Origin: Raja brachyura
Lineage: Eukaryota
DNA: 64,000 bases
Reading direction: 5' to 3'
Assembly (NCBI GenBank): GCA_963514005.1
Contig: OY740808.1
Span: 12,710,001 to 12,774,000, forward strand
Position numbers and translations under genes: made by a program. Shown piece after piece: positions 3,789 to 49,410 of the stretch. The notes beneath the pieces are model-generated. The model was not told where the DNA came from. It worked only from the letters and a program-made list of their open reading frames with translations, and did not search any database. How positions within the stretch are numbered: the first letter of the stretch is position 1; every line of letters begins with the position of its first letter.

Positions 3789-4597
3789 GCACGTGGTCTA
3801 TATGAAGCTGCCGTGCACTCATCGCATCTTTCTGTAGATGTTATCCTGCTTTTTTGAGAGTGTTGATGCCCAGTTTCAGTGTATTATCACCGTGAGACAC
3901 GTGCACGCCACATACAAACTCAGTGGCTGTTCTGCTAACGCCAATAATCACCCTGTTTCTTTAAAGCTGACAATCAGAAGAAATAAAGAAGAAATAAAGT
4001 GTAATGTTTGTAAATATTTAAATTCAATCCCCGTCACCAATTAGTGTGAAAGTCACGGTCTTCTGTGATAAAGGATGGAGGTGCCATGCTTGGTGCGAGG
4101 AGTGTAAAGTGGAGGTGCGAACAACCCATCGGCTTTCAGAAACTTGCTGATATGTTGGGAATTAATGGCGTTTCCAAATTTCCAGATTTCCAGGTATGCA
4201 CACGTATTTTATTTAACTATATGTAACGGTGCACCTTATGAATGAATTATTATTTTTTTTTAAACCGCCTGAAACGTCTACTCTATTTCTCACTTCCCAC
4301 GTGCTGCCCCACTTACTGAATATTAATAGTATTTTCTGATTATTTCTGTGATATTTTTGGTATTAAGGCGACGTTTGCCATGCTTGGTTTACACGGTTCT
4401 TTGCTTAATGTTGCACACGAACTGACAAAGCGCTGTAGAACGCATGGTATAAATCGACGAGTGGCTCACTACTGTTGTACGATTGTAATTAGTGATCGAA
4501 ATAGAGAAACAAAATCAGTGTTGGTAGCTCAGATCTACGAGACAACCCATGTTAAGCCATCATGGTTCGGGTCAGAAGTAAAACAAAGGAAATGAAC

Positions 4598-4616
4598 TTT
4601 ATTTTTAAACTTTATT
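4598..4616 (-). terminator. Poly(A) signals (AATAAA x2) of IgL cluster 1
   Basis: tttatt at 4611-4616 and 4598-4603, ~270 nt past the C stop; homologous signal at 21014-21019 in cluster 2. Confidence 0.65.
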
Positions 4617-4881
4617 CAACGGCTGCAAATATACAATGGGTACAATAGCAACATCCATGCTTTTGGCTAACGCAATTGAATCTACTCGATGCTTCATTCA
4701 AGAACGACATTCTTTCGAAAGCACTACATTTAAAGTGAACAAGTCATAAAAATCGAACTTTCGATTACAAATGGCATTTCTGAACGAAAACACCGAAATC
4801 CAATACATTACTATCTTTGTCACATGGACGAACCCAATGATGATAAACTAACTCGGTCAGGTCAGCCTCACGTTTCCAACA

Positions 4882-5204
4882 TCAGATACAGCTGGATCTC
4901 ACGATGTTTGTCTTAAGTGGGTTTGCCTGAGTCTGGTGTTTAACCACACAGGAGTAAAGCTCGTGTGAGTTCCAGTCTGAGGCTGGCAGAGTCAGGTAAC
5001 TGCTGAGACTGAACGTGTTGTCCTTATCCTGCTGGATCGGGCTGGTCTCAACGCCAGTATTTTTTGCTCCGCCGTCGACTGTCCACTCAACGGCCACCGA
5101 GCCCGGGTTAAAGCCGTTCACCAAACAAACCAGGGTGGCGGTGCCCTTTGAGGTAACTTCATCAGCGGAAGGCGGGAGAACCGTCACGATTGGTGCTCGA
5201 GGAT
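4882..5204 (-). CDS. IGLC: Ig light-chain constant exon, cluster 1 (lambda/type II-like C)
   Basis: CAG|AT acceptor at 5205; DPRAPIVTVLPPS...ATLVCLV.GF.PG...EW...YSCVVKH...RSSCI* C1-set domain with penultimate Cys. Confidence 0.96.
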
Positions 5205-6216
5205 CTGTTGAACAAGAAGTAACGTTTAATTGGAGAATTGCTATCGTTGAGATATCATATTTCAGAAAATGCATCCCTTTAGAGCACTCACTTATTCATT
5301 TGTAGAAAATCGTTTTATTCTCGATCTTTTTCAAACAATTGGGTGTGTGTTTTTGTTAAAATCGGATGAACAATGAATAAACAACGTGAAAGCAACTAGG
5401 ATAGATGCTGTCTGTCCTATCCATAAACAACACGGAAACAACTGTGATATATCATGGCTGTAAAGTTTTATAAAATCGAACACATTAATATAACTTTATA
5501 AAAGTGATTTTCACTGCACGTCTCCAGCTTTAATTCCCTGTCCGTCTATTTAAATGTAACAGATGTGAATAATTTACTTCGCGGAATTTACAGATTAACA
5601 GATTGAAACGTATTTGATAGTGTGCACCCATTGAGATAGAGGGTGACGGTATTTAAGTACCGCAGGAATAGAAGGAAAATATTCCACGCACCGATTCGCA
5701 GATTTCGATTTCATTATAGTTCGAATGTTCATTTTTATTTGAAATGTATTGTTGCGTTCACCAAAGCCTGTTACACGCATTAAACAAAAGTAACCTATCT
5801 CCTGAGGAAAATGTGCCAACCGTTCTATTTTCACATTTTGAGGTGAAACGATATACCCGCTAGACATGTCAACCAGAATTTCGGCAAAGTTGAATGTCAA
5901 CGTTGCTGACCCCCGTTAACCAAGCAATTTACTTTCACATCTGGCCAATTATTCTCGCGAGTTGAAAAATTCGCTGCAAATACTTCTGCAAATTAGTTAA
6001 CAAACCGCATTCTACTCTAATATTGAGGGCGTAGGGCTCCAGTAGGGCTCTCTTTTCCAGTTATTTCACTGAGCTATGACCAAGTGAACTCGGAGCGTGA
6101 GCGTCTGTAAAGCAGGAATCTATACACTGCACCAACTACATCGAAATAAACCTGGCAAAATCAAGATAGGCACAAAACGCTGGAGTAACTTAGCGGATCT
6201 TTGGAGAAAAGGAATA

Positions 6217-6250
6217 GGCGACGTTTCGGGTCGAGACCCTTCTTCAGACT
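6217..6250 (-). ncRNA. Minimal type I hammerhead ribozyme motif
   Basis: Minus strand AGT-CTGAAGA-A-GGGTC(TC)GACCC-GAAA-CG-TC-GCC: CUGANGA core, stem II, GAAA, short palindromic stem III, GUC site. Confidence 0.75.
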
Positions 6251-6390
6251 GAGAGTCAGGGGAAACGGACGCGAGAGATACAGACGGTGATATAGAGAGA
6301 TAAGGAAAAATGCTAGAAAGATATGCAAAGAAAAAACGATGATAAAGGAAATAGGCCATGTTTAACTGTGGGCTCGGTGAAAACGAGTTA

Positions 6391-6873
6391 GATACATAGA
6401 AACATAGAAATTAGGTGCAGGAGTAGGCCATTCGGCCCTTCGAGCCTGCACCGCCATTCAATATGATCATGGCTGATCATCCAACTCAGTATCCCGTACC
6501 TGCCTTCTCTCCATACCCTCTGATCCCCTTAGCCACAAGGGCCACATCCAACTCCCTCTTAAATATAGCCAATGAACTGGCCTCAACTACCCTCTGTGGC
6601 AGAGAGTTCCAGAGACCCACCACTCTCTGTGTGAAAAAGGTCCTTCTCATCTCGGTCCTAAAGGATTTCCCCCTTATCCTTAAGCTGTGACCCCTTGTCC
6701 TGGACCTCCCCAACATCGGGAACAATCTTCCTGCATCTAGCCTGTAATACCCCTTAAGAATTTTGTAAGTTTCTATAAGATCCCCTCTCAATCTCCTAAA
6801 TTCTAGAGAGTATAAACCGAGTCTATGCAGTCTTTGTTCATAAGACAGTCCTGACATCCCAGGAATCAGTCTG
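6391..6873 (-). mobile_element. CR1-clade LINE 3' fragment
   Basis: ORF 6486-6884 (LGLYSLEFRRLRGDLIETYK...TRGH...FFTQRVV..WNSLP); (TTTCTATG)n-type tail; GTTA TSD at 6387-6390/6874-6877; empty site at ~23195-23205. Confidence 0.92.
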
Positions 6874-7106
6874 GTTACAGACAATGCAACTCACCAGGAA
6901 AACACTAAAACTATTACAACGACTAACTTCAAAGTTACCTGAAGTTAGAGAAATCAATAGTCATACCGCTGGATTGTAAGCTGGCCAAATTAAACATGAG
7001 CTGCTGTTCCTCCATTTTGCGTGAACTACGACGTTAATTAAAAAAACATTTCATTTAAATTTACAAAATAATCCATGGCGCCATTCAAGGAATATATTTC
7101 ACTTAC

Positions 7107-7448
7107 CACCAAAACTCAGCCTCGTTCCTTTACCGAAATGTAAACCACTATCCGATTTTGCACAGTAATAGTCTGCAGCATCATTCGCTTGAACGTTAGA
7201 TATTGCGAATGTTGCAGTGTTGCCTGACATTGAGACGGAGAAACGGTCTGGAATGCCCGTGCCTTTGTCAATGCTGCCGGAATAATAGTACATTAAATAC
7301 TTTGGAGTTTTACCAGGGATCTGCTGGTACCAGGAGACATAGTTACCACCTGAACTGGAACCCGATATGGTGCAGGTTATTTGTATGTTCTGCCCCGTAG
7401 AGGTGGACATCGAAGGAGGTTGACTTACAGTAATTGCCGCGTCTACAT
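7107..7448 (-). CDS. IGLV: Germline-joined VJ exon, IgL cluster 1 (intact)
   Basis: TTTCAG|AT acceptor and G|GTAAGT donor; V-set C23, WYQQ, DYYC followed directly by AKSDSGLH-FGKGTRL; 342 nt, phase 1 at both ends. Confidence 0.96.
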
Positions 7449-7568
7449 CTGAAAAAAGATCAAGATCAGAAAAATATAAAATCATTAAGATAGTTGAAGT
7501 GTGGGAGAAGATCACAATTTAATGGTGCACGGCAATAAATCTATTGTCCGTGGACGTATAATACTCAC

Positions 7569-7617
7569 AAACTGCGCATAACACCAACGCACCAACCACA
7601 CAGATCCAGTAAGCCAT
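7569..7617 (-). CDS. IgL leader exon, cluster 1 (MAYWICVVGALVLCAV)
   Basis: ATG at 7617, hydrophobic signal peptide, phase-1 GTGAGT donor, 120-nt intron, in frame with VJ. Confidence 0.92.
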
Positions 7618-7693
7618 TTTAATTAAGCGACTGAACTCCGATAGGGCTTCAGTTTCCTGCTTAAGTGGCGTCTAAACTTGCTCAAGGGCTCGC

Positions 7694-7775
7694 TTTATAA
7701 ATGGAATGACGAGTTGGCACCGTGTGTGTATCTATGCAAACCAATCAAACCAGAATGCTCGTCGAAGCCAATCAG
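7694..7775 (-). promoter_or_regulatory. IgL promoter, cluster 1: TATA, TGACG half-CRE, 7/8 octamer, two inverted CCAAT boxes
   Basis: TTTATAAA 7694-7701; TGACG 7707-7711; ATGCAAAC 7734-7741 (GTTTGCAT in gene sense); CCAAT 7741-7745 and 7768-7772; layout conserved in all four clusters. Confidence 0.8.
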
Positions 7776-8033
7776 AAATTGCCAGATCCTTTCTTCCTCG
7801 AAATATTCCGCCACTGTGATGCATAGCTTGATGCGTTCTCATACATATTGTGGAATAAAAGGGTTTGGTGCAGTAGCCCCTTCCCGATAATAAACAATCT
7901 ATCCATGTTTGTATCATCCCTGTGCAAACATATAATGAAGAGATTATCTGAGAGTATTCAATATTATATTCTGTAACTCGTTAATCGCCAGTGGACACGG
8001 AAGCGAAACGGTCCAATTAAAACCATCTAGCAC

Positions 8034-8585
8034 TTTTTTTAAACATGTATTTATATTTTTATTAGAAGCATTGTACAGTAATATAAACCGCGGCATATGA
8101 CAAAATACATTTCGTGTACCGCTTCTATTTTGAATTTAACAAGAAATGGATAGAATAAGAAAGAAAGAACGAGAAAGAGAAAGAGTGAAGGAAGTAGTGA
8201 TGTGTAAACCCCTAGACTACCAGGTGTGCAGTCCAGGGGTAAACAAGTAATAGCCTATAGAAAAATAAAGACAAAACCCCATAAATAATAAAAAAAGGAA
8301 TAAAAGAAAAGAGAAAAGAGAGAGCAAGAAAAAAAAAAGCGACCCTTATGTGTGGTTATACCTGCTTCATATCTCACCACACCCATCACCCAGTTTGTGA
8401 ATCGGTTTATTTCCAGAGTTGTGTTGCACCAGGTTAATCTTGTAATGAATTAATTAAAGGAGACCATGCCTTTAAAAATTGTTCTGATTTTCCTGCTAGG
8501 ACGAGTCTCATATCTTCAAGATGTAGCGTCTCAGACATGCTCGTAATCCACATTTTAAGCGTTGGGTGGATGCATTTTCCAAATC
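8034..8585 (-). mobile_element. L1-clade LINE 3' end
   Basis: T-run and tttatt at the left end, purine-rich UTR, ORF2 C-terminal remnant resembling 1362-1560; absent from the homologous flank at ~38340-38380. Confidence 0.7.
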
Positions 8586-10784
8586 CCTGAATAGAACGTG
8601 ATGGCATTTATGTCCTCTACCCCGTTTTTATTCAGTGTCATCTTAAATCGATATATTTACGGAATTTCCGAAATCATAATTCCCACAGACCATCATTATT
8701 CTTGTGTGAGAATGTTAACTAACATTAACACTAATAAATGTTAGTGCAGTTGCAGTTTTAGGAAGCAATTCAGACTACATGGTGCGTATGTTGCTTGGAA
8801 GCGCTGCCTGCTTTCACTCTAATACTGTAATGCGCAGTGGACCTTTGCCCAAAGAAGGGCACCAGCATTTAGAAAAACAGAGGTGTTACATTTGACTTTA
8901 ATGAAGTTTAAAATTAGTGATATGTTTGATAACATGTTGATATACTACATACGTATACGATAACTCATTTTATGTACAGTTGATGCAGTGTTGGTATATT
9001 CCAAACAGCACCAGTCGACGATGAGCATCAGCAATAAGAAACAACGTCTGCAAGGGCACCCACGAATCGACCGTGGTAGTCGTTGTGTGATCTGCGCATC
9101 ATCCCCGGACGACATTTTCCTTCCATTTGATCAACAACAAAAGTTCCAAACTTAACATCTGGAAATTGTTCGGGATACTTGTTTTTTTCGAAATTAAGCT
9201 CCAATAACCGGAGTTCGATTTTGGGTGGGCGCGCCACTGTTTTTTTCCATCCTGGGTGAGCAGACGAAGGACACACAGTCAAACAGTGCTCCCTACGCAC
9301 AGGGGGCCACATGCAAAGAAGCGGGACAAAGTTAATGGTTGCTCAGACATTGATATCAATCGGAGGCATTGATTTACTCAGTGTTCTGAATATGCTTTTA
9401 AATTCCTGAATACTCCTTAATATAAATTACGATCTGGCAACTAACATGAATGCATGTATCATAAATGCCCGTTAAACCAGATTAATTTAGCAGCCGTCAT
9501 TATTGTTCTGCCATCCATTAACATAACCGTCCATTCTTTCAAGCACGGCTGGGACGGGAACACAATCTACAGAATTAGTTGCAATTGCGCACGTAAACGC
9601 ATGCATGCCACTAAACGTATGCATGCCACTAGGACAGCCATGTTTATCAAATGCTTATTCGCAGAATCCCCTCCAAGAGTCTCTCTCGTACACAGTACCT
9701 AGGTTTGTAAATATCTCGCATTGCTCTCACGGCTGCCGTTCCTCACTTTGCAACGTGCAATGCTGTAAGAAAATGAACACGCGAACGATGGCAGTGGCTC
9801 AAGGTTGTTCATCATTATCTTCCCAAATGCCTATCCACAGATGCTGCTTGATCCCCTCAGTTACTCCAGCAGTTTGTACTTTACTCAAGATTCCAGCATC
9901 CGCAGTTCCTTGCTTTCTCAGTTTTGAATGAATTATAAATACTGCGTTCCCAGAGATGCACACATTCCACAAATGTTCGGGAATTAGATATGGTCAAGCG
10001 AGAGCGAGCAGAGAGCAGCTGCTGCACGATTGTTTCATATTGCACATTCATGGAAAGTGGACACTGTGTACCAATAAAACAGTATTGATCCCACTGCTCG
10101 CCGAGATGTGTATTAGTGTATCTCCATTTCTTTCCTAGAGACGTCTGAGACTAGCTGGGCACTTGATTTAATAAATAACCCCTTGCTTTTTGAGTACCAT
10201 GATAAACGGCTAATTTTATAACATATTTACCCTTTCTTTCTAGATCAGACTTATTCGTTGGGGTCAAGGAAAGACTTATTCGTTGCGTTCACGCCGCAGC
10301 CCTGTTTCCACCAATCTTTCCACCATCACGCACAAGAAGCACAAGAAGCACAAGAAGCGACAAGACGGACACCATTGTATGCAGATGCCGAGAAGTGCGT
10401 TCGGTTCTGGTTGTACAACTTCTTATCTTATGTGTGGACTCGATAAGAAGATGACATTCATTGTATAACTGAATGCTTCGGTCTAGCTCACGAAGCTCAC
10501 CTTCATGAGAAGGAGAGAAAGACTTTACCTTGGAACGTGATCCGGAGCTGTTCCAGGAACGGAAAGTTCTCCAGATCAGCCATAGTAAACTGGAATCTGG
10601 AAGAGCAGAAATTCATGTGGTTCGTTGTTATTAGCAGTTAAGACTCAATGTGCAAAAGGGTGTGAGATTCGTTGCTTCATGAGCTTTTTCTCGTATTTTG
10701 CTATGATAAAGATGGACTTGGAAACCAAAATATCTATCTCCATTCCATCTCATTCCAGCTATCCACTCAATACCAAATTATAAT

Positions 10785-12142: not shown

Positions 12143-12392
12143 CCAAATAAAATGGATAGCGATGTTTTACTTAATGGGATCTAAGTCAACCAGACAGGAG
12201 TAAAGTTTGTGTATTTTCCAGTCTGAGCTGGCAGAGGGTTGCCCGTCTCCTGCTGGACCCGGTTGGTCTCAACGCCATTCCTTCTCGCAGTTTTGTCTGC
12301 AGTCCATTAAACCCGCTCAGCGAACATACCAGGGTAGCCGGTCCATTCACCGTGACTTCGCTCATCGAAGGTGGCAAAACCGACCCAAGGAT
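12143..12392 (-). pseudogene. Decayed orphan Ig light-chain C exon
   Basis: CAG|ATCCT acceptor; across frameshifts it reads VLPPSMSEVTVNGPATLVCSLSGF / WTADKTARRNGVETNRVQQETGN / SDWKIHKLYSCLV; downstream tgtcacctggaaga resembles the C 3' UTR. Confidence 0.85.
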
Positions 12393-13252: not shown

Positions 13253-15008
13253 CAATGAATTGGAGGGAAGGGGGTATCACAGAGGGGGAGCAGTTAGAGA
13301 GGAGGTTGTGAAACTGTCTTCGTAGGGAGGAAGATAACTTCTTCAAAGTAGGCATACCTTGAGGAGATATCGCAGTGGAGTAGACAAAGTGTTAAAGAAG
13401 GAACTGCAGATGCTGGAGAATCGAGGGTTACACAAAAAGCTGGAGAAACTCAGCGGGTGCAGCAGCATCTAAGGAGCCCCCATTTCCTCCAAACACAAGG
13501 CGTAGCTATGGGCACACGCATGGGCCCTAGCTACGCCTGCCTCTTTGTCGGGCACGTCGAACAATCTTTGTTCTCGGCGTACCAGGGCCCCACCCCCGAC
13601 CTTTACCTCCGTTACATTGACAACTGCTTTGGTGTCACCTCCTGCACCCACGCACAACTGACTGACTTCATCCATTTCACCACCAACTTCCATCCGGCAC
13701 TCAAATATACTTGGACCATTTCCGACATTTCCCTACCATTCCTTGACCTCACCATCTCTATTGCAGGTGATACACTCCTGACTGACATCCACTACAAACC
13801 AACTGACTCCCACAGCTACCTGGACTACTCTTCCTCCCACCCTGCTTCCTGTAAGGACTCCATCCCCTATTCCCAATTCCTCCGTCTACGCCGCATCTGC
13901 TCCCAGGATGAGGTGTTCCACACCAGGTCATCATAAATGGCCTCGTTCTTCAGAGAACGGGGTTTCCCCTCCCCCACTATAGATGAGGCTCGCACCAGGG
14001 TCTCCTCCATACCCCGCAACACTGCCCTCTCTCCCCATTCCCCCACTCACAACAAGGGCCGAGTCCCCGTGGTCCTCACCTTTCACCCCACCAGCCAGCG
14101 CATACAACACATAGTCCTCCGCCAGTTTCGCCACCTCCAACGTGACCCCTCCACTCGCCACATCTTCCCATCTCCCCCCCCTGTCTGCGTTCCGCAAAGA
14201 CCGCTCCCTCCGCAACTCCCTTGTCAATTCTTCCCTTCCCTCCCGCTCCGCTCCTTCCCCGGGCACTTTCCCTTGCAACCGCAAGAGATGCTACACTTGT
14301 CCCTTCACCTCCCCCATCCACTCCTTTCAGGGACCCAAGCAGTCATTCCAAGTCTGACAGAGGTTCACCTGCTCCTCCTCCACCTCATCAACTGCATCCG
14401 TTGCTCAAGATGCCAGCTGATCTACATCGGTGAGACCAAGCGGAGGCTGGGCGATCGTTTCGCCGAACACCTCCGCTCGGTCCGCAATAACCAACCCGAC
14501 CTCCCGGTGGCTCAGCAGTTCAACTCCCCCTCCCATTCCGTATCCGACCTCTCGGTCCTGAGCCTCCTCCACGGCCAGAGTGAGCAACACCGCAAGTTGG
14601 AGGAACAGCACCTCATATTCCGCTTGGGGAGTCTGCATCCTCTGGGCATAAACATTGAATTTTCTCAATTCTGTTAACCCAGACTGCCCCCTCCCCACCT
14701 CTCCCTCAGCCCTCGGGCCCTGACATTCCTTCTCCATCTCTCCCCCCCCCCACCCCAGTCGCAGTAGCTTCTCATTTTCACACCACAAACAGCTTACAAT
14801 GGCCTGTTTCCTTTATCATCAATACTTTTTTGCATATCTTTCATTCATTGTTCTTTATCTCTCCACATCACTGTTTATATCTCTCGTTTCCCTGATCCCT
14901 GATCCCTGACCAGTCTGAAGAAGGGTCTCGACCCGAAACGTCGCCTATCTCCTTCGCTCCTTAGATGCTGCTGCACCCGCTGAGTTTCTCCAGCTTTTTG
15001 TGTAACCC
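13253..15008 (+). mobile_element. Penelope-like retroelement (RT + GIY-YIG) with inverted 5' segment and pLTR
   Basis: QTQGVAMGTRMGPSYACLF, RYIDN, LPFLDL, YKPTDSH; CQLIYIGETKRRLGDRFAEH; stop at 13934-13936 and a poly-C frameshift near 14175; 13425-13476 inverted against 14956-15008; 14-bp TSD CCATAAACCGACAA at 13239-13252/15009-15022. Confidence 0.95.
14912..14945 (+). ncRNA. Minimal hammerhead ribozyme motif in the Penelope pLTR
   Basis: AGT-CTGAAGA-A-GGGTCTCGACCC-GAAACGTC-GCC. Confidence 0.8.
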
Positions 15009-19222: not shown

Positions 19223-20001
19223 AATGATTCAGAACAAATGAGACCCGATATCGATGACCATGGAAAGGTGGAGCTCACAATGGACAACCAGGACACATGG
19301 GGAACGGGAGGAAAAGGCAAGGCCGGGAAGACTCAAATCTTTGCTGTTGGCTTCTTCATAAATATTACAAGCCGCAGAAGAAATTGGGAAGAAAATGGGC
19401 ATGATAATGGCAGCTCGAGAGTAATCGGAATTGGTTCCTTTGAACAGAGAAGGTATAATGGTGATTTGAATGCATAGTGAAGACGTTTAATTGACCAATT
19501 TGTTCCGAGTGAAAGTATGCCCAGTATTTACAAATTACAGATGAAGAGGAATTTCCAAAATAACTAACGATCAGGTGAGCAATTGCAGACATGTGACGAT
19601 TTATTCGAATCAGCAAAAAATGTCTACAATCCGGATTATTTAGAAACGATAAGACACATGAAGCTGGAGTAACTTAGCGGGTCAGACAGCATCTCTGGAG
19701 AAAATGAATAGGTGACATTTCGGATCGAGACCTTTTCTTCAAACATGCCGAAGAATGGTCTTGCCCCAAAACGTCACCGATTCCTTTTCTCCAGAGATGC
19801 TTTCTGACCCGCTGAGTTATTCCAGCTTTTTGTGTCTATCTTTGGTTTAAACCAGCATCTGCAACTCCTTCCAATTCATTAAGACCTAAGCCCAGGTTGC
19901 TCGTGTAACGTGAAAATAATTGGGAATAGGTCTTGGAATAAGTGAAAAGCGATTTGTGACAGAGGTCAGGGGTTTGTCCTCTTAGCATATAGTTCCCTCA
20001 T

Positions 20002-21606: not shown

Positions 21607-22414
21607 CTGTTTAACAAGAAGTCACGTTTAATTGGAGAATTGCTGTCGTTGGGATATCATATTTCAGAAAATGCATCCCATTACAGCACTCATTTATTCA
21701 TTTGTAGAAAATCGTTTTATTCTCGATCTATTTCAAACAATTGTGTGTGTGTTTTTGTTTAAATCGGATAAACAATGAATAAACAACGTGAAAGCAACTA
21801 GGATAGATGCTGTCTGTCCTATCCATAAACTCCACGGAAACAACTGTGATAGATCATGGCTGTAAAGTTTTATAAAATCGAACACATTAATATAACTTTA
21901 TAAAAGTGATTTTCACTGCACGTCTCCAGCTTTACTTCCATGTCCGTCTATTGAAATGTAATCGCCACGGTCACCGATTCGCACATTTCGATTTCATTAT
22001 AGTTCGAATGTTAATTTATATTTGAAATGTATTGTTGCGTTCGCCAAAGCCTATTACACAAAAGTAATGAGGAAAATGTGCGAAACGTTCTCTTTTCACA
22101 TTTTTAGGTGAAACGATATACCCGTTAGACATGTCAACCAGAATTTCGGCAAAGTTGAATGTCAACGTTGCTGCCCCCCGTTAACCAAGCAATTTACTTT
22201 CACATTTGGACAATTATTCTCGCGAGTTGAAAGTTTCGCTGCGACTACTTCTGCAAATTATTTAACAAACCGCATTTCATGCCACGATAGTTCGGGGGCA
22301 CTTCAATTCTACGCCAATCCTTATATACATGCCTACTTCAAAATCCCCCCAAAAGTGCCAATAGTTCGCATTGGGAAACACGCGATAATTATTGGGCGGG
22401 AAGGAATAATTGGA

Positions 22415-22550
22415 GGGTTACACAGAAAGCTGGAGAAACTCAGCGGGTGCAGCAGCATCTAAGGGGCGAAGGAGATAGGCGAAGTTTCGGGTCGAGACCC
22501 TTCTTCAGACTCCTACTTTGAAGAAGTTCTCCTCCTATCTCCTTCGGTCT
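22415..22550 (-). mobile_element. Short Penelope pLTR insertion with hammerhead variant in the cluster 2 J-C intron
   Basis: gggttacacagaaagctggagaaactcagcggg...cccttcttcagact; possible imperfect TSD GAATAATT(G/T)GA at 22404-22414/22551-22561. Confidence 0.75.
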
Positions 22551-23041
22551 GAATAATTTGAAATGGCTTTGAGATAGAAATGTGGCTCTCATCTGCGAAA
22601 CAACGACATACATTATTTCCGTGATTCAACAAAAGTATAAAGGGATTCAGAGTGAAATACTTGTTTCAATATCAAACAAAACACCGTGGAACAAATTATT
22701 CTCTCGCATCCCTGCACCGTGCGGTCAGATATCAATGTGTACAAAAGATTAAAAGTAACTGCAGTCCCAAATAATTTATTTCGCCCAAAGTAGATAAGGT
22801 CCATGTGTTCATTCGTGCGCTTAGGTTCATTGGGCGCTGAGTTGAGAAATGGATTTTTAGCTCCCTTTTCGAGTTAATTCACTGAGCTATGACCAAGTGA
22901 ACTCGGAGCGTGAGCGTCTGTAAAGCAGGAATCTATACACTGCACCAACTACATCGTAATATACCTGGGAAAATCAAGTATAATGTGAGGATAGGCAAAA
23001 AACGCTGGAGTAACTTAGCGAATCTCTGGAGAAAAGGAATA

Positions 23042-23075
23042 GGTGACGTTTCGGGTCGAGACCCTTCTTCAGACT
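23042..23075 (-). ncRNA. Minimal hammerhead ribozyme motif
   Basis: Minus strand AGTCTGAAGAAGGGTCTCGACCCGAAACGTCACC. Confidence 0.75.
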
Positions 23076-23427
23076 GAGTCAGGCGAAAGGGACGCGAAAG
23101 ATATAGATGGAGATATAGAGAGATAAAGAAAAAACTGATTTAAAGATATGCAAAAAAGTAACAATGATAAAGGAAATAGGCCGTGGTGAAAACGAGTTAC
23201 AGACAATGCAGCTCACCTGGAAAACATTGAAACTATTACAACGACTAACTTCAAAGTTACTTTAAGTTAGAGAAATCAATAGTCATACCGCTGGATTGTA
23301 AGGTGGCCAAGTGAAATATGAGCTGCTGTTCATCCAATTGCTTGAATTGCGACGTTCATTCAACAAACATTTCATTTACATTTACAAATTAATCCACGGT
23401 GCCGTCCACAGAATATATTTCACTTAC

Positions 23428-23919
23428 CACCAATACCCAGCCTCGTTTCTTTACCGAAATGTAAACCACTATCCCATCTTGCACAGTCTGCAGCATCGAC
23501 CGCTTGAACGTTAGATATTGCGAATGTTGCAGTGTTGCCTGACATTGAGACGGAGTGTCCGTGCCTTTATAAATGCTGCCGGAAGAATAGTAGAATAAAT
23601 ATTTTGGAGTTTTGCCAGGGATCTGTTGGTACCAGGAGTCATAGTTACCGCCTGAACTGTCGCCCGTTATGGTGCAGGTTATTTGTATGTTCTGCCCCGT
23701 AGAGGTGGACAGCAAAGGCGGTTGACTTATTGTAATTGCCGCATTTACATCTGAGAAAAGATCAAGATCAGAAAAATATAAAATCATTAAGATAGTTGAA
23801 GTGTGGGAGAAGATCCCAATTAAATGGTGCACGGAAATAAATCTATTGTCCGTGGAAGAATAATATTCACAAACTGCGCTTAACACCAACGCACCAACCA
23901 CACAGATCCAGCAAGACAT
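23428..23919 (-). pseudogene. IGLV: IgL cluster 2 leader (23871-23919) + germline-joined VJ (23428-23750) pseudogene
   Basis: VJ exon 323 vs 342 nt: 13-nt frameshifting deletion at 23555/23556 and 6-nt deletion near 23487 removing YY of DYYC; J reads FGKET. Confidence 0.93.
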
Positions 23920-23987
23920 TTTAATTAAGCTACTCAACTCCGATAGGGCGTCAGTTTCCTGATTAAGTGGCGTCTAAACTTGCTCTC

Positions 23988-24464
23988 ATAGAAACATAGA
24001 ACATAGAACAATAGGTGCAGGAGTAGGCCATTCGGCCAGTCGAGCCTGCACCGCCATTCAATGTGATCATGGCTGATCATCCAACTCAGTATCCCGTACC
24101 TGCCTTCTCTCCATACCCCCTGATCCCTTTAGCCACAAGTGCCACATCTAACGCCCTCTTAAATATAGCCAATGAACTGGCCTCAACTACCTTCTGTGGC
24201 AGAGAATTCCAGAGACTCACCACTCTCTGTGTAAAGAATGTTTTCCTCATCTCGGTCCTAAAGGAATTCCTCCTTATCCTTAGACCGTGACCCCTTGTTC
24301 TGGACTCCCCCAACATCGGGAACAATCTTCCAGCATCTAGCTTGTCCAACCCCTTAAGAATTTTGTAAGTTTCTATAAGATCCCCCCTGAATCTTCTAAA
24401 TTCCAGCAAGTACAAGCCGAGTCTATCCAATCTTTCCTCGTATGAAAGTCCTGACATCTCAGGA
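23988..24464 (-). mobile_element. CR1 3' fragment inserted between the TATA box and leader of cluster 2
   Basis: atagaaac/atagaac tail and RT C-terminus; flanks ttgctctc | ctcgggctcgctttataaa rebuild the uninterrupted promoter of the other clusters (CTC duplicated). Confidence 0.92.
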
Positions 24465-24475
24465 CTCGGGCTCGC

Positions 24476-24583: not shown

Positions 24584-26661
24584 TCCTCCAGATCCCGTTG
24601 TACTTCCCCTTTTCCCAACTTGACACCATTTAGATAATAATCGGCCTTCCTGTTTTTGCTACCAAAGTGGACAACCTCACATTTATCCACATTAAACTGG
24701 ATCTGCCATACATCTGCCCACTCACCCAACCTGTCTAAGTCATGCTGCATTCTCATAGCATCCTCCTCACACTGCCACCCACCTTTGCGTCATCTGCAAA
24801 TTTGTTAATGTTACTTTGAATCCCTTCATCCAAATTATTGATGTATATTGTAAATAGTTGCGGTCCCAGCACCGAGCCTTGCGGTACCCCACAAGTCACT
24901 ACCCGCCATTCTGAAAGGGACCCGTTAATCCCTACTCTTTGTTTCCTGTCTGCCAAACAATTTTATATCCATGTCAGCACTCTACCCCCAATAAAATGTG
25001 CCCTAATTTTGCCCACTAATCTCCAAGTCGGACCTTGTCAAATGCTTTCTAAAAGTCCAGGTACACTACATCCACTGGCTCTCCCTTGTCCATTTTCCTA
25101 GTTACATTCTAAAAAATTTCCAGAAGATTAGTCCAGCATGATTTTCTCTTCGTAAATCCATGCTGACTCGGACTGATCCTGTTACTGCTATCCAAATGAG
25201 CCGCTATTTCATATTTTATCATTGACTCCAGCATCTTCCCCACCACCGATGTCAGGCTAACTGGTCTATAATTCCCTGGGGGTTACACAAAAAGCTGGAG
25301 AAACTCAGCGGGTGCAGCAGCATCTAAGGAGCGAAGGAGATAGGCGACGTTTCGGGTCGAGACCCTTCTTCAGCTTTTGCTGGGGTCCGAACTGGGAGGC
25401 AGGGAATTGGAGCTGGAATCCACGAGGTATGAGGTGGAGGCGCAGGCAGGCCCCGAGGAAGCAGATGTGGCTGTGGTATCGAGTCTGGGTGAGGATGTGG
25501 TCGTAGAGTTGGAGGGAAGGGGGTATCACAGAGGGGGAGCAGTTAGAGAGGAGGTTGTGAAACTGTCTTCGTAGGGAGGAGGAGAACTTCTTCAAAGTAG
25601 GCATACCTTGAGGAGATATCGCAGTGGAGTAGACAAAGTGTTAAAGAAGGAACTGCAGATGCTGGAGAATCGAGGGTTACACAAAAAGCTGGAGAAACTC
25701 AGCGGGTGCAGCAGCATCTAAGGAGCGAAGGAGATAGGCGACGTTTCGGGTCGAGACCCTTCTTCAGCTATAATTCCCTGGATTCTCTCTCCCACTTTCT
25801 TAAGAGCTACCCTATAATCCACAGGAACGGATCCTGAAATCTATAGAAGATTGGAAAATGATCACCAATGACCACAGTTTCTGGAGCCATTTCCTTAAGT
25901 ACCCTGGGATGCAGAGCATCAGGCCCTGGAGATTAGTCAGCCTTCAGTCCCATCAGTCTACCCAACACCATTTCCCGCCTAATGTGGATTTCCTTCGGTT
26001 CGTCTGTCACCCCAGATCCTCTGGCCACTCGTACATCAGGAAGAATGTTTGTGTCCTCCTTATTGAAGACGGATCCAAAGTACCTATTCAACTCATCTGC
26101 CTTTTCCTTGTTCCCCATAATAAAATCACTTTTTTTTCAGTCGTCAAGGGTCCAACTTTCGTTTTAACTATTTTTTTCCTCTTCACGTACCTTAAGAAGC
26201 TTTTACTATCCTCCTTCATATTCTTGGCTAGCTTACCTTCATTCCTCATCTTTTCTCCGCGTATTGCCTTTTTAGTTATCTTCTGTTGCTCTTTAAACAT
26301 TACCCAATCCTCTTGCTTACCACTCAACTTTGCTACGTTGTACTTCTTCTCTTTTATTTTTATACTTTCCCTGACTTCCCTCATCAGCCTCGGTTGCCCC
26401 TTACTCCCCATGGAATCTTTCTTCCTCTTTGGAATGAACTGATTCTGCACCTTCTGTATTATTCCCAGAAATACCTGCCATTGTTGTTCCACTGTCATCC
26501 CTGCTAGGGTATCCTTCCAGACAACTTTGGCCAGCTCCTCCATCATGGTTCCATAGCCCCCTTTGTTCAACTGTAACACTGACACCTCCGATTTATCCTC
26601 CTCCTTCTCAAATTGTATATTAAAACTTGCCATATTATGGTCACTACCTCCTAATGGCTCA
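24584..26661 (-). mobile_element. Decayed CR1 ORF2, host of the nested Penelope-derived insert
   Basis: ORFs 26088-26633, 25933-26118, 24753-24956 (GVPQGSVLGPQLF, KFADD) and 24514-24756. Confidence 0.9.
25280..25767 (-). mobile_element. Non-autonomous Penelope-derived unit flanked by 94-bp direct repeats, each carrying a hammerhead motif (retrozyme-like)
   Basis: Repeats 25280-25373 and 25674-25767 (period 394); interior matches the Penelope 5' region at 13260-13424; 14-bp TSD CTATAATTCCCTGG at 25266-25279/25768-25781. Confidence 0.88.
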
Positions 26662-37104: not shown

Positions 37105-37397
37105 CACATTTTCGAGTACATTGAATTCATGGTGCGACCCAAAGTAATTCTGTGAACTGTAAAAAAATGTTGTTTGGAATCGCAGCTGCGCGATTTCTAA
37201 TCTAATATTGACGCTGTAAGGGTTAGTCTTGCTCGAGTTATGGTTATTTTGAAATTCTTTGTAGGCGCAATATGGCTCTGATCAGTGCAAACAATTAAAT
37301 ACATTATTTTCGTCGCTTATATACATTATTTTCAAACAATATCTGCATTAAAATAAAAAGAAGACATCGCGCTATCCGAAGAATATATTTTACTTAC

Positions 37398-37910
37398 CGC
37401 CAATACCCAGCCTCGTTCTTTTACCGAAATGTAAACCACTATCCCATTTGGCACAGTAATAATCAGCAGCATCCACCGATTGGACGCCAGATATTGCGAA
37501 TATTAGAGAGTTGCCTGACACCGAGACGGAAAAACGGTCTGGAATGTCCGTGCCTTTATAAGTGGTGCCGGAATAATACCAGAATAGATACTTGGGAGTT
37601 TTGCCAGGAATCTGTTGGTACCACCCGGCATTGTCAGCGCCTGAACTTGAACCCGATATGGTACAGGACATCTATATGTTCTGTCCCGTAGAGGTGGCCA
37701 GCGAAGGCGGCTGGCTTACAGTAACTGCCGCGCTTAAGTCTGAGAAAAGAGAAATATCAGAACAAAAAAGAAAATTGTTACGTTTGTTGAAGTGTGGGAG
37801 ATAACCCCAAATTAATGGTGAACAGAAATAAGTATAATGTCCAGGGAAGTAAAATACTCACAAACTGCGCAAAAAACCAACGCACCGGCCACACGGATCC
37901 AATAAGACAT
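37398..37910 (-). pseudogene. IGLV: IgL cluster 3 leader (37862-37910) + germline-joined VJ (37398-37739) pseudogene
   Basis: Splice sites and length intact, but CAG>TAG at 37672-37674 in FR1 and J reads FGKRT. Confidence 0.9.
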
Positions 37911-47030: not shown

Positions 47031-49249
47031 TCATCATACACTGAATAATCCAACCACATTTTTGGTTGGAAATTGAAAGAAATAGTAGAAATTGCATTCA
47101 TTGCAACATGAAAAAGAGTTGAGATACTGCATTATAATTTTGCTGCATGTCATTGTGGTCTATATCATGTCTCGATTGGTGAATATGTTTCGTTTGTGAC
47201 TTTATTTGAAGCAGAAATAATTTGTGAATACTTCATTGAGCATAATTCCGACTGGTAACAGTGCACTTCGTCCGAGCACATTATCGCACACATCATGGAG
47301 CCGTCTTAAATGACCACCTAAACTGTCACTTGGCAACGTAAAAAGCTGCCAAGGTTGCCCGGCTGACAACAGAAAAAAAAATTAAGTGAGAACCCTGAAA
47401 GGTGTATAATATTTTTGACACTGTCATAGGCCTTTCTTACACATGCTGTCACAGCGCACTGTAGTCTCTCAACAACACTTCAGTAATTTTCCTTCCCCTC
47501 CATTTCAGAAAAATAATGTTTTAAGCCAATAACTCGACACTAGCACTGGTAATAAATAAATAAATAAACGCAGCTTTCCAGCCCTTTATTTCATTGGCCA
47601 CGCTCGGCTGCAAATCGGTGTCAATCTGGTGGACCATCTTCCTCAAGTCGTGGGGGTAGGGGATTGGGAGGGGCCTCACAAGTGGAACAGCTTAGGGCCT
47701 CTCTTCATCTAAATCCGGCCCTGGAAGGATACAAGGATGGGGGGGGGGGGGGGGGGGGGTTGCAAGAGTAGCTTGAAATTAGATAAATCAATAGTCATAC
47801 CACTGGGTTGAAAGTTGCCCAAGCGAAATATGAGTTGCTGTTCTTCCAATTTGCGTGTGGCCTCACTCTGACGATGACAGGACAGAATGGTCTGTACGGG
47901 AAAATAGATCAAAGAAAACCGGAGTAACTCAGCGGGACAGGCAGCATCTCTGGATAGAAGGAATGGGTGATGTTTCGTGTCGAGACCATTCTTCAATGGG
48001 AGGGAAAATGTTTCGGCAATCAGAATATCCCGTAGGCCATGGCGGACTATGCATAAGCGTTCAGCGAAACGACCACCTAGTTCATAGTTCCTCTTGCCAA
48101 TCTATAGGAGCCCGCACCGAACAATAGATGAGGTGGAGAAGGTGCAAGTAAACTTCTGCCTCCCCTGAAACGACTGTCGGGGTCCCTGGATATAGTCGAG
48201 GTGGGAGGTATAAGGACAGGATTGCTTCTTCTGCGGTTGCAAGGAGAAGTTCCTGGGGAGAGGGTGGTTTTGGTGGGAACTGATGAATGAACCAGAGAGT
48301 TTCAGAGGGAATCTTCACTGCGGAACACAGAAGGGGGGGTGGGGGGAGTTGTGACCAGTTTGGAGGTCAAGAACATTTAGGAGGATAATAACTGTCCCTA
48401 TCGCGACTGTGGGGCTTGGGAACAAGTGCGGAACTGGTGGATCAAATTGCGACACGTGTGATGGTCTAATTTATGATAAAAGGGCGGAACTATAGTTTCC
48501 TAAAGAATTAGGATATATCTGATGTTCTAGTCTGGAACATCTCATCTTGGGAGAAAAATCAGCGCCGTCAGAGGAATTGGTAGTAGGGAATAGGGTATTT
48601 TGAAAGTGGCAGGGTAGGAAGAAGTGTGGGCCGGATAACATGAACACCTAACAACTCCATGCCATTTCCACGGTGAGTTTACTGTCCTGGACCGCTCAAA
48701 ATGAGCCCACGCGCATATTGGACTAATAGCACCTCATATTTCGTTTGCGCAGCTTACAACACAGCGGTATGAACATTGATTTCTTCAACTTGAAGTACTG
48801 CTTCATTCCCCCCCCCCATCCCACCCGCCGCCCCCCCCCCCCCCCCTCCCCCCGTACATGAGGGCGGGAAAGAAAATAAGATATAGAGCGCGGTCAGATT
48901 GGATGAGAAAGGAAGGTGAGAGGGAAAACGGTGTAGGAATTGGAATGGGCACCGTTGAGTTTAAAGCGGTGAGGGTGATATAAAGTACAGAAATAAAAAA
49001 ATGCATGGAGAAGACAGGAACAATAAAACCAAAACACACTCCTTTTCAGATCACAGATGCCCATGCACCCAAGTAATTGCACAATGTTAATTATTATTTT
49101 ACTATCAGCGCATAACCTTGCAAATTATTAAATTGATAACAAATGGGATGTGGTAGATAAAAATACTTAAATCATTTTATGTGAATAAAAGTGTCGAAAC
49201 AGCCAAACAAATTTGAAAGAGCAAGGCAAACAGATAGGTAATGTATGGG

Positions 49250-49410
49250 CCGCATCTATGGAGCGAAGGAATGGGTAACGTTTCGGGCCGAGACCCTTCA
49301 TCAGACTGACCTCGAAACGTTAACCATTCCTTCGCTCCATAGGTGCTGCCTCACCCGCTGAGATTCTCCATATTCTGCCTTCGATTTTTCCAGCGTCTGC
49401 AGTTATCTCT
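49250..49410. repeat. Fold-back pLTR element with a CUGAUGA hammerhead on the minus strand
   Basis: gcatctatggagcgaaggaatgggtaacgtttcg...cccttcatcagact / cgaaacgttaaccattccttcgctccataggtgc. Confidence 0.72.

What the first reader, a model, noticed from the sequence alone, without database searches (positions are those of the whole stretch)
6217..6250. Intact sense-strand hammerhead motif inside the J-C intron of an apparently functional antibody gene
Seen: the Penelope remnant in the cluster 1 intron has the same orientation as the IgL gene, so the pre-mRNA contains AGUCUGAAGAAGGGUCUCGACCCGAAACGUCGCC about 860 nt downstream of the J donor. The core is also intact in the cluster 2 paralog (23042-23075) even though the neighbouring pLTR/UTR sequence has indels. 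Clusters 3 and 4 have none. Inference: it could cleave or attenuate pre-mRNA of a pre-joined light chain that cannot be controlled by rearrangement. It may equally be a neutral passenger, since a lone minimal hammerhead is usually a weak cutter.
Basis: partly seen in the sequence, partly recalled or inferred. Interest (0 to 1): 0.7.

Follow-up and report, generated by a model that had tools for sequence, protein, structure and literature searches.

The report
Penelope hammerhead passenger in antibody intron
The small self-cutting-RNA motif in this fish antibody gene's intron is real, but it is one of about 50,000 identical copies left by a jumping gene, and it most likely does nothing to the antibody gene.

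Summary
Observation confirmed. A minimal type I hammerhead core (6220-6247, minus strand) lies sense in the J-C intron of an open germline-joined light-chain gene, 856 nt after the J donor, inside a ~355-nt Penelope-like 3' fragment. The regulatory reading is not supported. The exact 28-nt core occurs 50,608 times in the genome. In 1.56 Mb from ten other large genes, intact cores lie sense 45 times and antisense 49 times. Of 26 light-chain J-C introns, only clusters 1 and 2 have an intact sense core, from one shared insertion; 23 other open clusters lack it. Cluster 2 is a frameshifted pseudogene yet keeps the core. The motif has no helix III, a 2-bp helix I and no intact partner in the transcript; lone motifs of this kind did not cut in vitro (PMC4209133). 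Cleavage itself was not tested. The scan found this family before in this genome, and sense intronic copies in other genomes.

The parts
6220..6247 (-). Minimal type I hammerhead core: C3-A9 at 6247-6241, one extra A, 4-bp helix II (6239-6236 with 6231-6228), G12-A14, palindromic ACGU in place of helix III, C17 at 6220; predicted cut between 6220 and 6219
   Evidence: Sequence; 50,608 exact copies in the genome; architecture as described in PMC4209133
6165..7023 (-). 5'-truncated Penelope-like insertion, about 355 nt without the nested repeat: last codons of the ORF, 3' UTR/pseudo-LTR, hammerhead and tail; borders approximate; tail has a ~10-nt deletion shared with cluster 2
   Evidence: Absent from paralog L006 at the aligned site; ORF end matches longer copies with weak GIY-YIG hits below the Pfam cut-off; alignment to nearest relatives
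6391..6873 (-). Later insertion of another very abundant repeat into the Penelope fragment, cluster 1 only (LINE-like 3' end; the label CR1/L2 is recalled, not tested)
   Evidence: Gap in cluster 2 alignment; many window copies; highest read depth
7569..7617 (-). Leader exon of light-chain cluster 1 (coding part)
   Evidence: Sequence and GT donor
7107..7448 (-). Germline-joined V-J exon of cluster 1, open frame
   Evidence: Translation; Pfam V-set
5205..7106 (-). J-C intron of cluster 1 (1,902 nt, GT...AG)
   Evidence: Sequence
4882..5204 (-). C exon of cluster 1, open to a TGA stop; AATAAA signals at 4616-4611 and 4603-4598
   Evidence: Translation; Pfam C1-set; branch changes 2 amino-acid-changing to 6 silent
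23045..23072 (-). Same core in the cluster 2 intron, inherited from the same insertion
   Evidence: Shared borders and shared tail deletion
22481..22508 (-). Second, younger-subfamily sense copy in the cluster 2 intron; G16.2 changed, so the ACGU palindrome is lost
23423..23757 (-). Cluster 2 V-J exon, broken by a 13-nt frameshift deletion and a 6-nt deletion before the second cysteine; a ~480-nt repeat also sits between its TATA-like box and leader (23986-24467)

Best explanation
The motif is the minimal hammerhead of a truncated Penelope-like retrotransposon copy that sits in this light-chain intron and is likely a neutral passenger that rarely or never cuts the pre-mRNA. Shown: one insertion entered the ancestor of clusters 1 and 2 and was copied by cluster duplication; identical cores number 50,608; sense and antisense copies in other genes are equally frequent and equally decayed. 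Inferred: the core is intact because the copy is moderately young (about 5-6% change per branch) and 28 nt is short. Inferred: it stays inactive because a lone copy cannot close helix III, has only 2 bp of helix I, and has no intact sense partner in the transcript, so the intron is spliced out whole.
For: 50,608 exact cores, 25,374 forward and 25,234 reverse. In 156 loci (1.56 Mb) from ten large genes: exact 19 sense to 22 antisense, intact 45 to 49 (sense fraction 95% CI 0.37-0.58), all 185 to 190. Catalytic non-CpG positions differ at 9.6% in sense and 9.2% in antisense copies, other non-CpG positions at 9.1% and 9.4%. Picked on the flank alone: intact 38 of 210 sense, 45 of 234 antisense. 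26 J-C introns total 50 kb, where at least one exact sense core is expected with probability 0.37 and one intact core with 0.76. Intact events there: one sense, one antisense. Cluster 2 is broken and its C exon changed 6 amino-acid to 3 silent, against 2 to 6 in cluster 1. Helix I pairing probability under 0.01 in all 12 folds; the modelled double hammerhead is 3-24 kcal/mol worse than two folded monomers. A single min-HHR showed no cleavage, dimers only low cleavage (PMC4209133).
Against: Flanks of the insertion changed at a summed 16% over the source-to-tips history while the core changed at 0 of 28 sites: probability 0.01, or 0.04 scaled by the family core/flank ratio (that ratio is biased low by one misaligned row, L042, and by picking relatives on overall similarity, so about 0.02). 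Among copies with 5-15% flank distance only 13 of 159 have an exact core and 43 of 159 an intact one. An anole Penelope hammerhead cuts when the element's protein is added (PMC11167929). Helix II does form in cluster 1 context in 4 of 6 folds at about 0.5. Strand balance excludes an effect that selection sees, not cutting as such. No RNA data cover this gene.
Confidence: 0.9

Rival explanations
1. The copy cuts a small share of transcripts, by pairing with a second RNA copy through the ACGU palindrome or with help from Penelope protein, but without any selected role.
For: All catalytic letters present. Protein-assisted cleavage shown for an anole Penelope hammerhead (PMC11167929). Low cleavage of dimers and trimers (PMC4209133). 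Contigs of guessed RNA runs from other organisms hold the repeat in depth.
Against: Helix I only 2 bp; active dimer fold disfavoured in the model; the ACGU is paired elsewhere in 4 of 6 cluster 1 folds; no depletion of intact sense pairs that the small sample can show (within 3 kb: 3 sense, 3 antisense).
Confidence: 0.05
2. The core was co-opted to lower or gate the output of a germline-joined light chain that rearrangement cannot control.
For: Cluster 1 looks functional (open frames, 2 to 6 changes in C). Zero core changes is a 1-4% event before conditioning. An engineered fast hammerhead in an intron lowers expression up to 20-fold in zebrafish (PMC11856399). All lambda genes of cartilaginous fishes are germline-joined (PMC4279169), so some other control must exist.
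Against: 23 of 24 open clusters lack an intact sense core. The only other carrier is a pseudogene. After conditioning on cluster 1, an unchanged core in cluster 2 has probability 0.24-0.37, and 17% of intron windows are as conserved. Constitutive cutting would give no cell-by-cell choice.
Confidence: 0.03
3. The insertion matters through splicing, not catalysis: the pyrimidine tract and CAG just before the core act as a cryptic acceptor, and a J donor joined there would meet a stop codon at once.
For: The sequence shows a long pyrimidine tract ending in CAG at 6251-6249. An intron end maps at helix I in Drosophila Penelope (PMC4209133).
Against: Copies with a pyrimidine tract and AG before the core lie 39 sense to 39 antisense in other genes; long-form copies 13 to 14. 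No splice-site score was computed and no reads were available.
Confidence: 0.02

Closest known systems
Minimal hammerheads (min-HHR) in pseudo-LTRs of metazoan Penelope-like elements (Cervera and De la Pena 2014, PMC4209133)
   Same: Type I layout, CUGANGA and GAAA boxes, extra base between 9 and 10.1, G10.1-C11.1 pair, palindromic 15.2-16.2, no helix III, mostly lone copies from truncated elements, very high copy number.
   Different: Helix II is 4 bp and helix I 2 bp here, shorter than the 7-8 and 4-5 bp given for Schistosoma. The 50,608 exact copies exceed the 4,000-9,000 motifs given for coelacanth and Xenopus. No cartilaginous fish is named in the parts of the paper that I read.
EN+ Penelope-like elements with C-terminal GIY-YIG endonuclease (PMC8557442, PMC11167929)
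   Same: 5'-truncated copy ending in ORF end, pseudo-LTR with hammerhead, and tail; inverted pairs common.
   Different: Only the last ~20 codons are present; the clade (Neptune or Poseidon) was not determined here.
Non-LTR retrozymes of vertebrates (10.64898/2026.07.22.740005)
   Same: Penelope-derived hammerhead repeats, about 43% of Xenopus copies overlapping introns; 8 of 9 dimers tested did not cut.
   Different: This copy is a lone monomer that keeps the ORF end, not a tandem unit.
Intronic ribozymes that act on their host pre-mRNA: Cpeb3 ribozyme (PMC10919898, listing only) and engineered T3H48 hammerhead (PMC11856399)
   Same: Self-cleaving motif on the sense strand of an intron.
   Different: Those are complete, self-folding ribozymes with measured activity; this one lacks helix III, is lineage-specific among paralogs and shows no selection.

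Membership tests
min-HHR of metazoan Penelope-like elements | Conserved boxes CUGANGA, GAAA and NUH | tested here: met
min-HHR of metazoan Penelope-like elements | Unpaired base after A9 and G10.1-C11.1 closing helix II | tested here: met
   Sequence; helix II probability about 0.5 in 4 of 6 folds
min-HHR of metazoan Penelope-like elements | No helix III; palindromic 15.2-16.2 | tested here: met
   ACGU directly after GAA
min-HHR of metazoan Penelope-like elements | Lies in the terminal repeat downstream of a Penelope ORF | tested here: met
   ORF end upstream in the same insertion; longer relatives give GIY-YIG hits at E 0.0003, 0.017 and 0.08 in 3 of 4 tested, all below the Pfam cut-off; no full element with RT was fetched
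min-HHR of metazoan Penelope-like elements | Helix I of 4-5 bp | tested here: not met
   2 contiguous bp here and in 69 of 94 intact family copies; the paper reports a 2-bp helix I as a variant in Drosophila virilis, so this copy belongs with such variants
Canonical self-sufficient hammerhead ribozyme | Three helices that fold in one molecule, with loop contacts | tested here: not met
   No helix III, helix I probability under 0.01; no Rfam hammerhead hit
Canonical self-sufficient hammerhead ribozyme | Self-cleavage | not testable with these tools
   Needs a cleavage assay or end-mapping reads
Non-LTR retrozyme | Tandem units each with a hammerhead | tested here: not met
   Single sense copy in the cluster 1 gene; next same-strand copies at 465-492 and 19714-19741 are degenerate and outside it
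Host-co-opted intronic ribozyme | Core conserved beyond neutral expectation across paralogs or species | tested here: inconclusive
   P 0.01-0.04 unconditioned, 0.24-0.37 conditioned; absent from 24 of 26 introns; the one other organism label is only 0.8% apart and its contig stops inside the core
Germline-joined Ig light-chain cluster | In-frame fused V-J exon followed by one C exon | tested here: met
   no recombination signal match in the window; isotype (lambda or sigma-2) not tested

The most novel reading that the evidence does not exclude
A retrotransposon-borne minimal hammerhead, switched on by an RNA partner or by Penelope protein, cuts the pre-mRNA of one germline-joined light-chain gene and has been kept to tune its output: a ribozyme-based brake on an antibody gene.
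Probability: 0.03. Interest if true: 0.7.

Novelty: new member of a known kind. Interest (0 to 1): 0.1.

Why it matters
As a feature of this gene it is ordinary. If it did cut and tune expression, it would be a ribozyme regulating an antibody gene and would bear on how pre-joined light chains are controlled. The useful by-product is a negative result: intact minimal hammerheads lie on both strands of introns in equal numbers (45 to 49), which suggests that they do not cut host pre-mRNA enough for selection to notice. That speaks modestly to the open question of whether such motifs are active in vivo outside their element.

Tried and rejected
Rfam scan of the window: no hammerhead family; a weak MIR1507 hit (33.6 bits, gathering score 73) is an inverted pair of the same repeat. 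Sequencing runs: no RNA holder listed. Four guessed RNA runs laid at 85% covered only the repeats and no exon, so they say nothing on expression. Four DNA runs were swamped by repeat contigs; one sample gave a 1,092-nt contig over 5134-6225 with 9 differences that ends inside the core, so the core could not be compared between organisms. A global alignment of 11 paralogs misaligned the insertions and was replaced by pairwise alignments. The first flank profile was too long and found 8 copies; it was rebuilt. Region labels for the promoter and leader intron and the donor position were slightly off; the report uses coordinates re-read. A tandem double hammerhead in cluster 2 (copies 564 nt apart) was considered and rejected: the second copy has lost the palindrome and the gene is broken. 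Paper searches: hammerhead + ribozyme + immunoglobulin + shark returned 3 unrelated papers; hammerhead + penelope + intron returned 31, 25 listed, none about antibody genes by title. Most subscription journals are not in the library.

Full report
Observation. The host is a light-chain cluster on the minus strand with a leader exon (ATG 7617), a fused V-J exon (7448-7107), a 1,902-nt intron and a C exon (5204-4882). Frames are open and splice sites are in phase (Pfam V-set and C1-set). The motif starts 856 nt after the J donor. It has the hammerhead boxes CUGAAGA and GAAA, a 4-bp helix II, an extra A after A9 and the palindrome ACGU where helix III should be. The predicted cut is after C17 at 6220. 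Germline-joined clusters point to a cartilaginous fish (PMC4279169 and PMC5192425, passages; PMC2192082, abstract). I did not determine the isotype.

What carries it. Against paralog L006, cluster 2 has a 356-nt insertion at the aligned site, and cluster 1 has the same insertion at about 7023-6165 with a later repeat nested in it. The insertion begins with the last codons of an ORF. Longer relatives of that ORF end give weak GIY-YIG hits in 3 of 4 tested, all below the Pfam cut-off. This fits a 5'-truncated Penelope-like element ending in its pseudo-LTR and tail (PMC8557442, passages). Clusters 1 and 2 share the borders and a ~10-nt tail deletion, so this is one insertion copied by cluster duplication, not two.

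How common. The exact 28-nt core occurs 25,374 + 25,234 = 50,608 times in 2.70 Gb; the reversed control occurs 0 times. That is one per 53 kb. The window holds 5 exact cores where 1.2 are expected; two are the duplicated pair and two lie 394 nt apart.

Paralog census. A search with the C exon gave 29 matches, 27 of them C-exon-sized on this contig. I examined all 27; one (L016) had no V in the 8 kb fetched, leaving 26 J-C introns of 50 kb in all. Within 7 mismatches they hold 5 sense copies (4 events) and 6 antisense copies. One sense event (clusters 1 and 2) and one antisense copy (L015) are intact. Chance of at least one exact sense core in that length is 0.37, of an intact one 0.76. Of 24 clusters whose V-J and C alignments show no stop or shift, only cluster 1 has an intact sense core; leaders and promoters of the others were not checked. 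The nine closest paralogs have no copy in the intron.

Is the core conserved? Between clusters 1 and 2 the intron differs at 7.8% of 1,245 aligned sites, and 17% of other gap-free 28-nt windows are also identical. Against 28 nearest genomic relatives (the best 30 of 41 matches, less the two clusters), flank changes were 5.1% shared, 6.3% on the cluster 1 branch and 5.1% on the cluster 2 branch; core changes were 0. Zero over the whole history has probability 0.01, or 0.04 with the family scaling, which is biased by one misaligned row. But the copy was noticed because cluster 1 is intact; given that, an unchanged cluster 2 core has probability 0.24-0.37. Eight of the 28 relatives also have exact cores, though they were ranked by similarity that includes the core. 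Cluster 2 has a 13-nt frameshift, a 6-nt deletion and a repeat between TATA-like box and leader. Its C exon changed 6 amino-acid to 3 silent, close to neutral, while cluster 1 changed 2 to 6 (small counts). Selection on light-chain output cannot easily explain the core there.

Do such copies harm host genes? I located ten large gene bodies and their strands from runs of spectrin and laminin-G exon hits and fetched 156 stretches of 10 kb. Gene identity and nested antisense genes were not checked. Of 375 copies within 7 mismatches, 185 are sense and 190 antisense; intact 45 and 49; exact 19 and 22. Catalytic and other non-CpG positions decay alike on both strands, 9.1-9.6%. Picking 444 copies by the tail alone gives intact cores in 38 of 210 sense and 45 of 234 antisense. 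There is no sign of selection against or for sense cores. The interval (0.37-0.58) still allows a small deficit, and cutting that splicing tolerates would not show.

Can it fold? A monomer cannot close helix III, as ACGU leaves a 2-nt loop. Helix I has 2 contiguous pairs with pairing probability under 0.01 in 12 folds; helix II is about 0.5 in 4 of 6 cluster 1 folds, where ACG is paired elsewhere. The 171-nt context folds no better than shuffles (z +1.75). The modelled double hammerhead is 3-24 kcal/mol less stable than two folded monomers; the model ignores tertiary contacts and proteins. No second sense copy lies in the cluster 1 gene.

Literature. In PMC4209133 (parts 1-2 of 4 of the main text read, supplements not read) a single min-HHR did not cut and dimers cut weakly. 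In PMC11167929 (passages) an anole Penelope hammerhead cut only with the element's protein, was not needed for insertion, and no RNA-seq reads ended at its site. In preprint 10.64898/2026.07.22.740005 (abstract and Results read, supplements closed) 1 of 9 dimers cut and copies were under-represented in introns of Xenopus, without regard to strand in the text I read. Supplementary alignments that I did not see may already list this fish family.

RNA data. No RNA run holds this gene, so expression, splicing and cleavage are untested. One DNA sample under another organism label has the cluster at 0.8% difference with the tail of the insertion present.

Verdict. A real minimal Penelope hammerhead, likely a neutral passenger (0.90). 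Incidental low-level cutting 0.05, co-opted attenuation 0.03, cryptic acceptor 0.02. Earlier notes of this scan reached the same reading for this family and for sense intronic copies in other genomes; they are not counted as evidence. Interest 0.1.

Noticed in passing
window 25346-25373 and 25740-25767 (-): Two exact cores of the young subfamily 394 nt apart on the same strand, upstream of cluster 2; a better candidate for a double hammerhead if transcribed. The spacer 25506-25726 matches 13257-13477 at 98.6%.
   Followed up: no
window 6249-6300 (-): Long pyrimidine tract ending in CAG just before the core, resembling a splice acceptor; such copies show no strand bias in other genes (39 to 39).
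   Followed up: partly
window 6011-6047 against 22276-22860: Cluster 1 has lost about 585 nt of ancestral intron that cluster 2 keeps; the younger hammerhead copy of cluster 2 lies in that stretch.
   Followed up: partly
window 37393-37746 (-): Cluster 3 V-J exon has an in-frame stop in framework 1.
   Followed up: no
window 12161-12383 (-): Decayed fragment of a light-chain C exon between clusters 1 and 2.
   Followed up: no
window 7107-7160 (-): Cluster 1 has S in place of the W found after CAK in its nine closest paralogs, and SF in place of GI at the end of J.
   Followed up: no
L013, L015, L019, L021-L023, L025: A second group of germline-joined clusters about 0.7 Mb away on the opposite strand, only 40-49% identical in V; possibly another isotype.
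   Followed up: no
L023:3891-3918 (+): Exact sense core about 450 nt upstream of a V exon, in the promoter or leader region of another cluster.
   Followed up: no
window 49239-49361: Inverted pair of the repeat forming a long hairpin; gives a spurious weak Rfam microRNA hit.
   Followed up: partly
G000:C30, about 11.87-12.93 Mb: At least 27 light-chain C exons in about 1 Mb, most in clusters with open fused V-J exons spaced 15-40 kb apart.
   Followed up: partly
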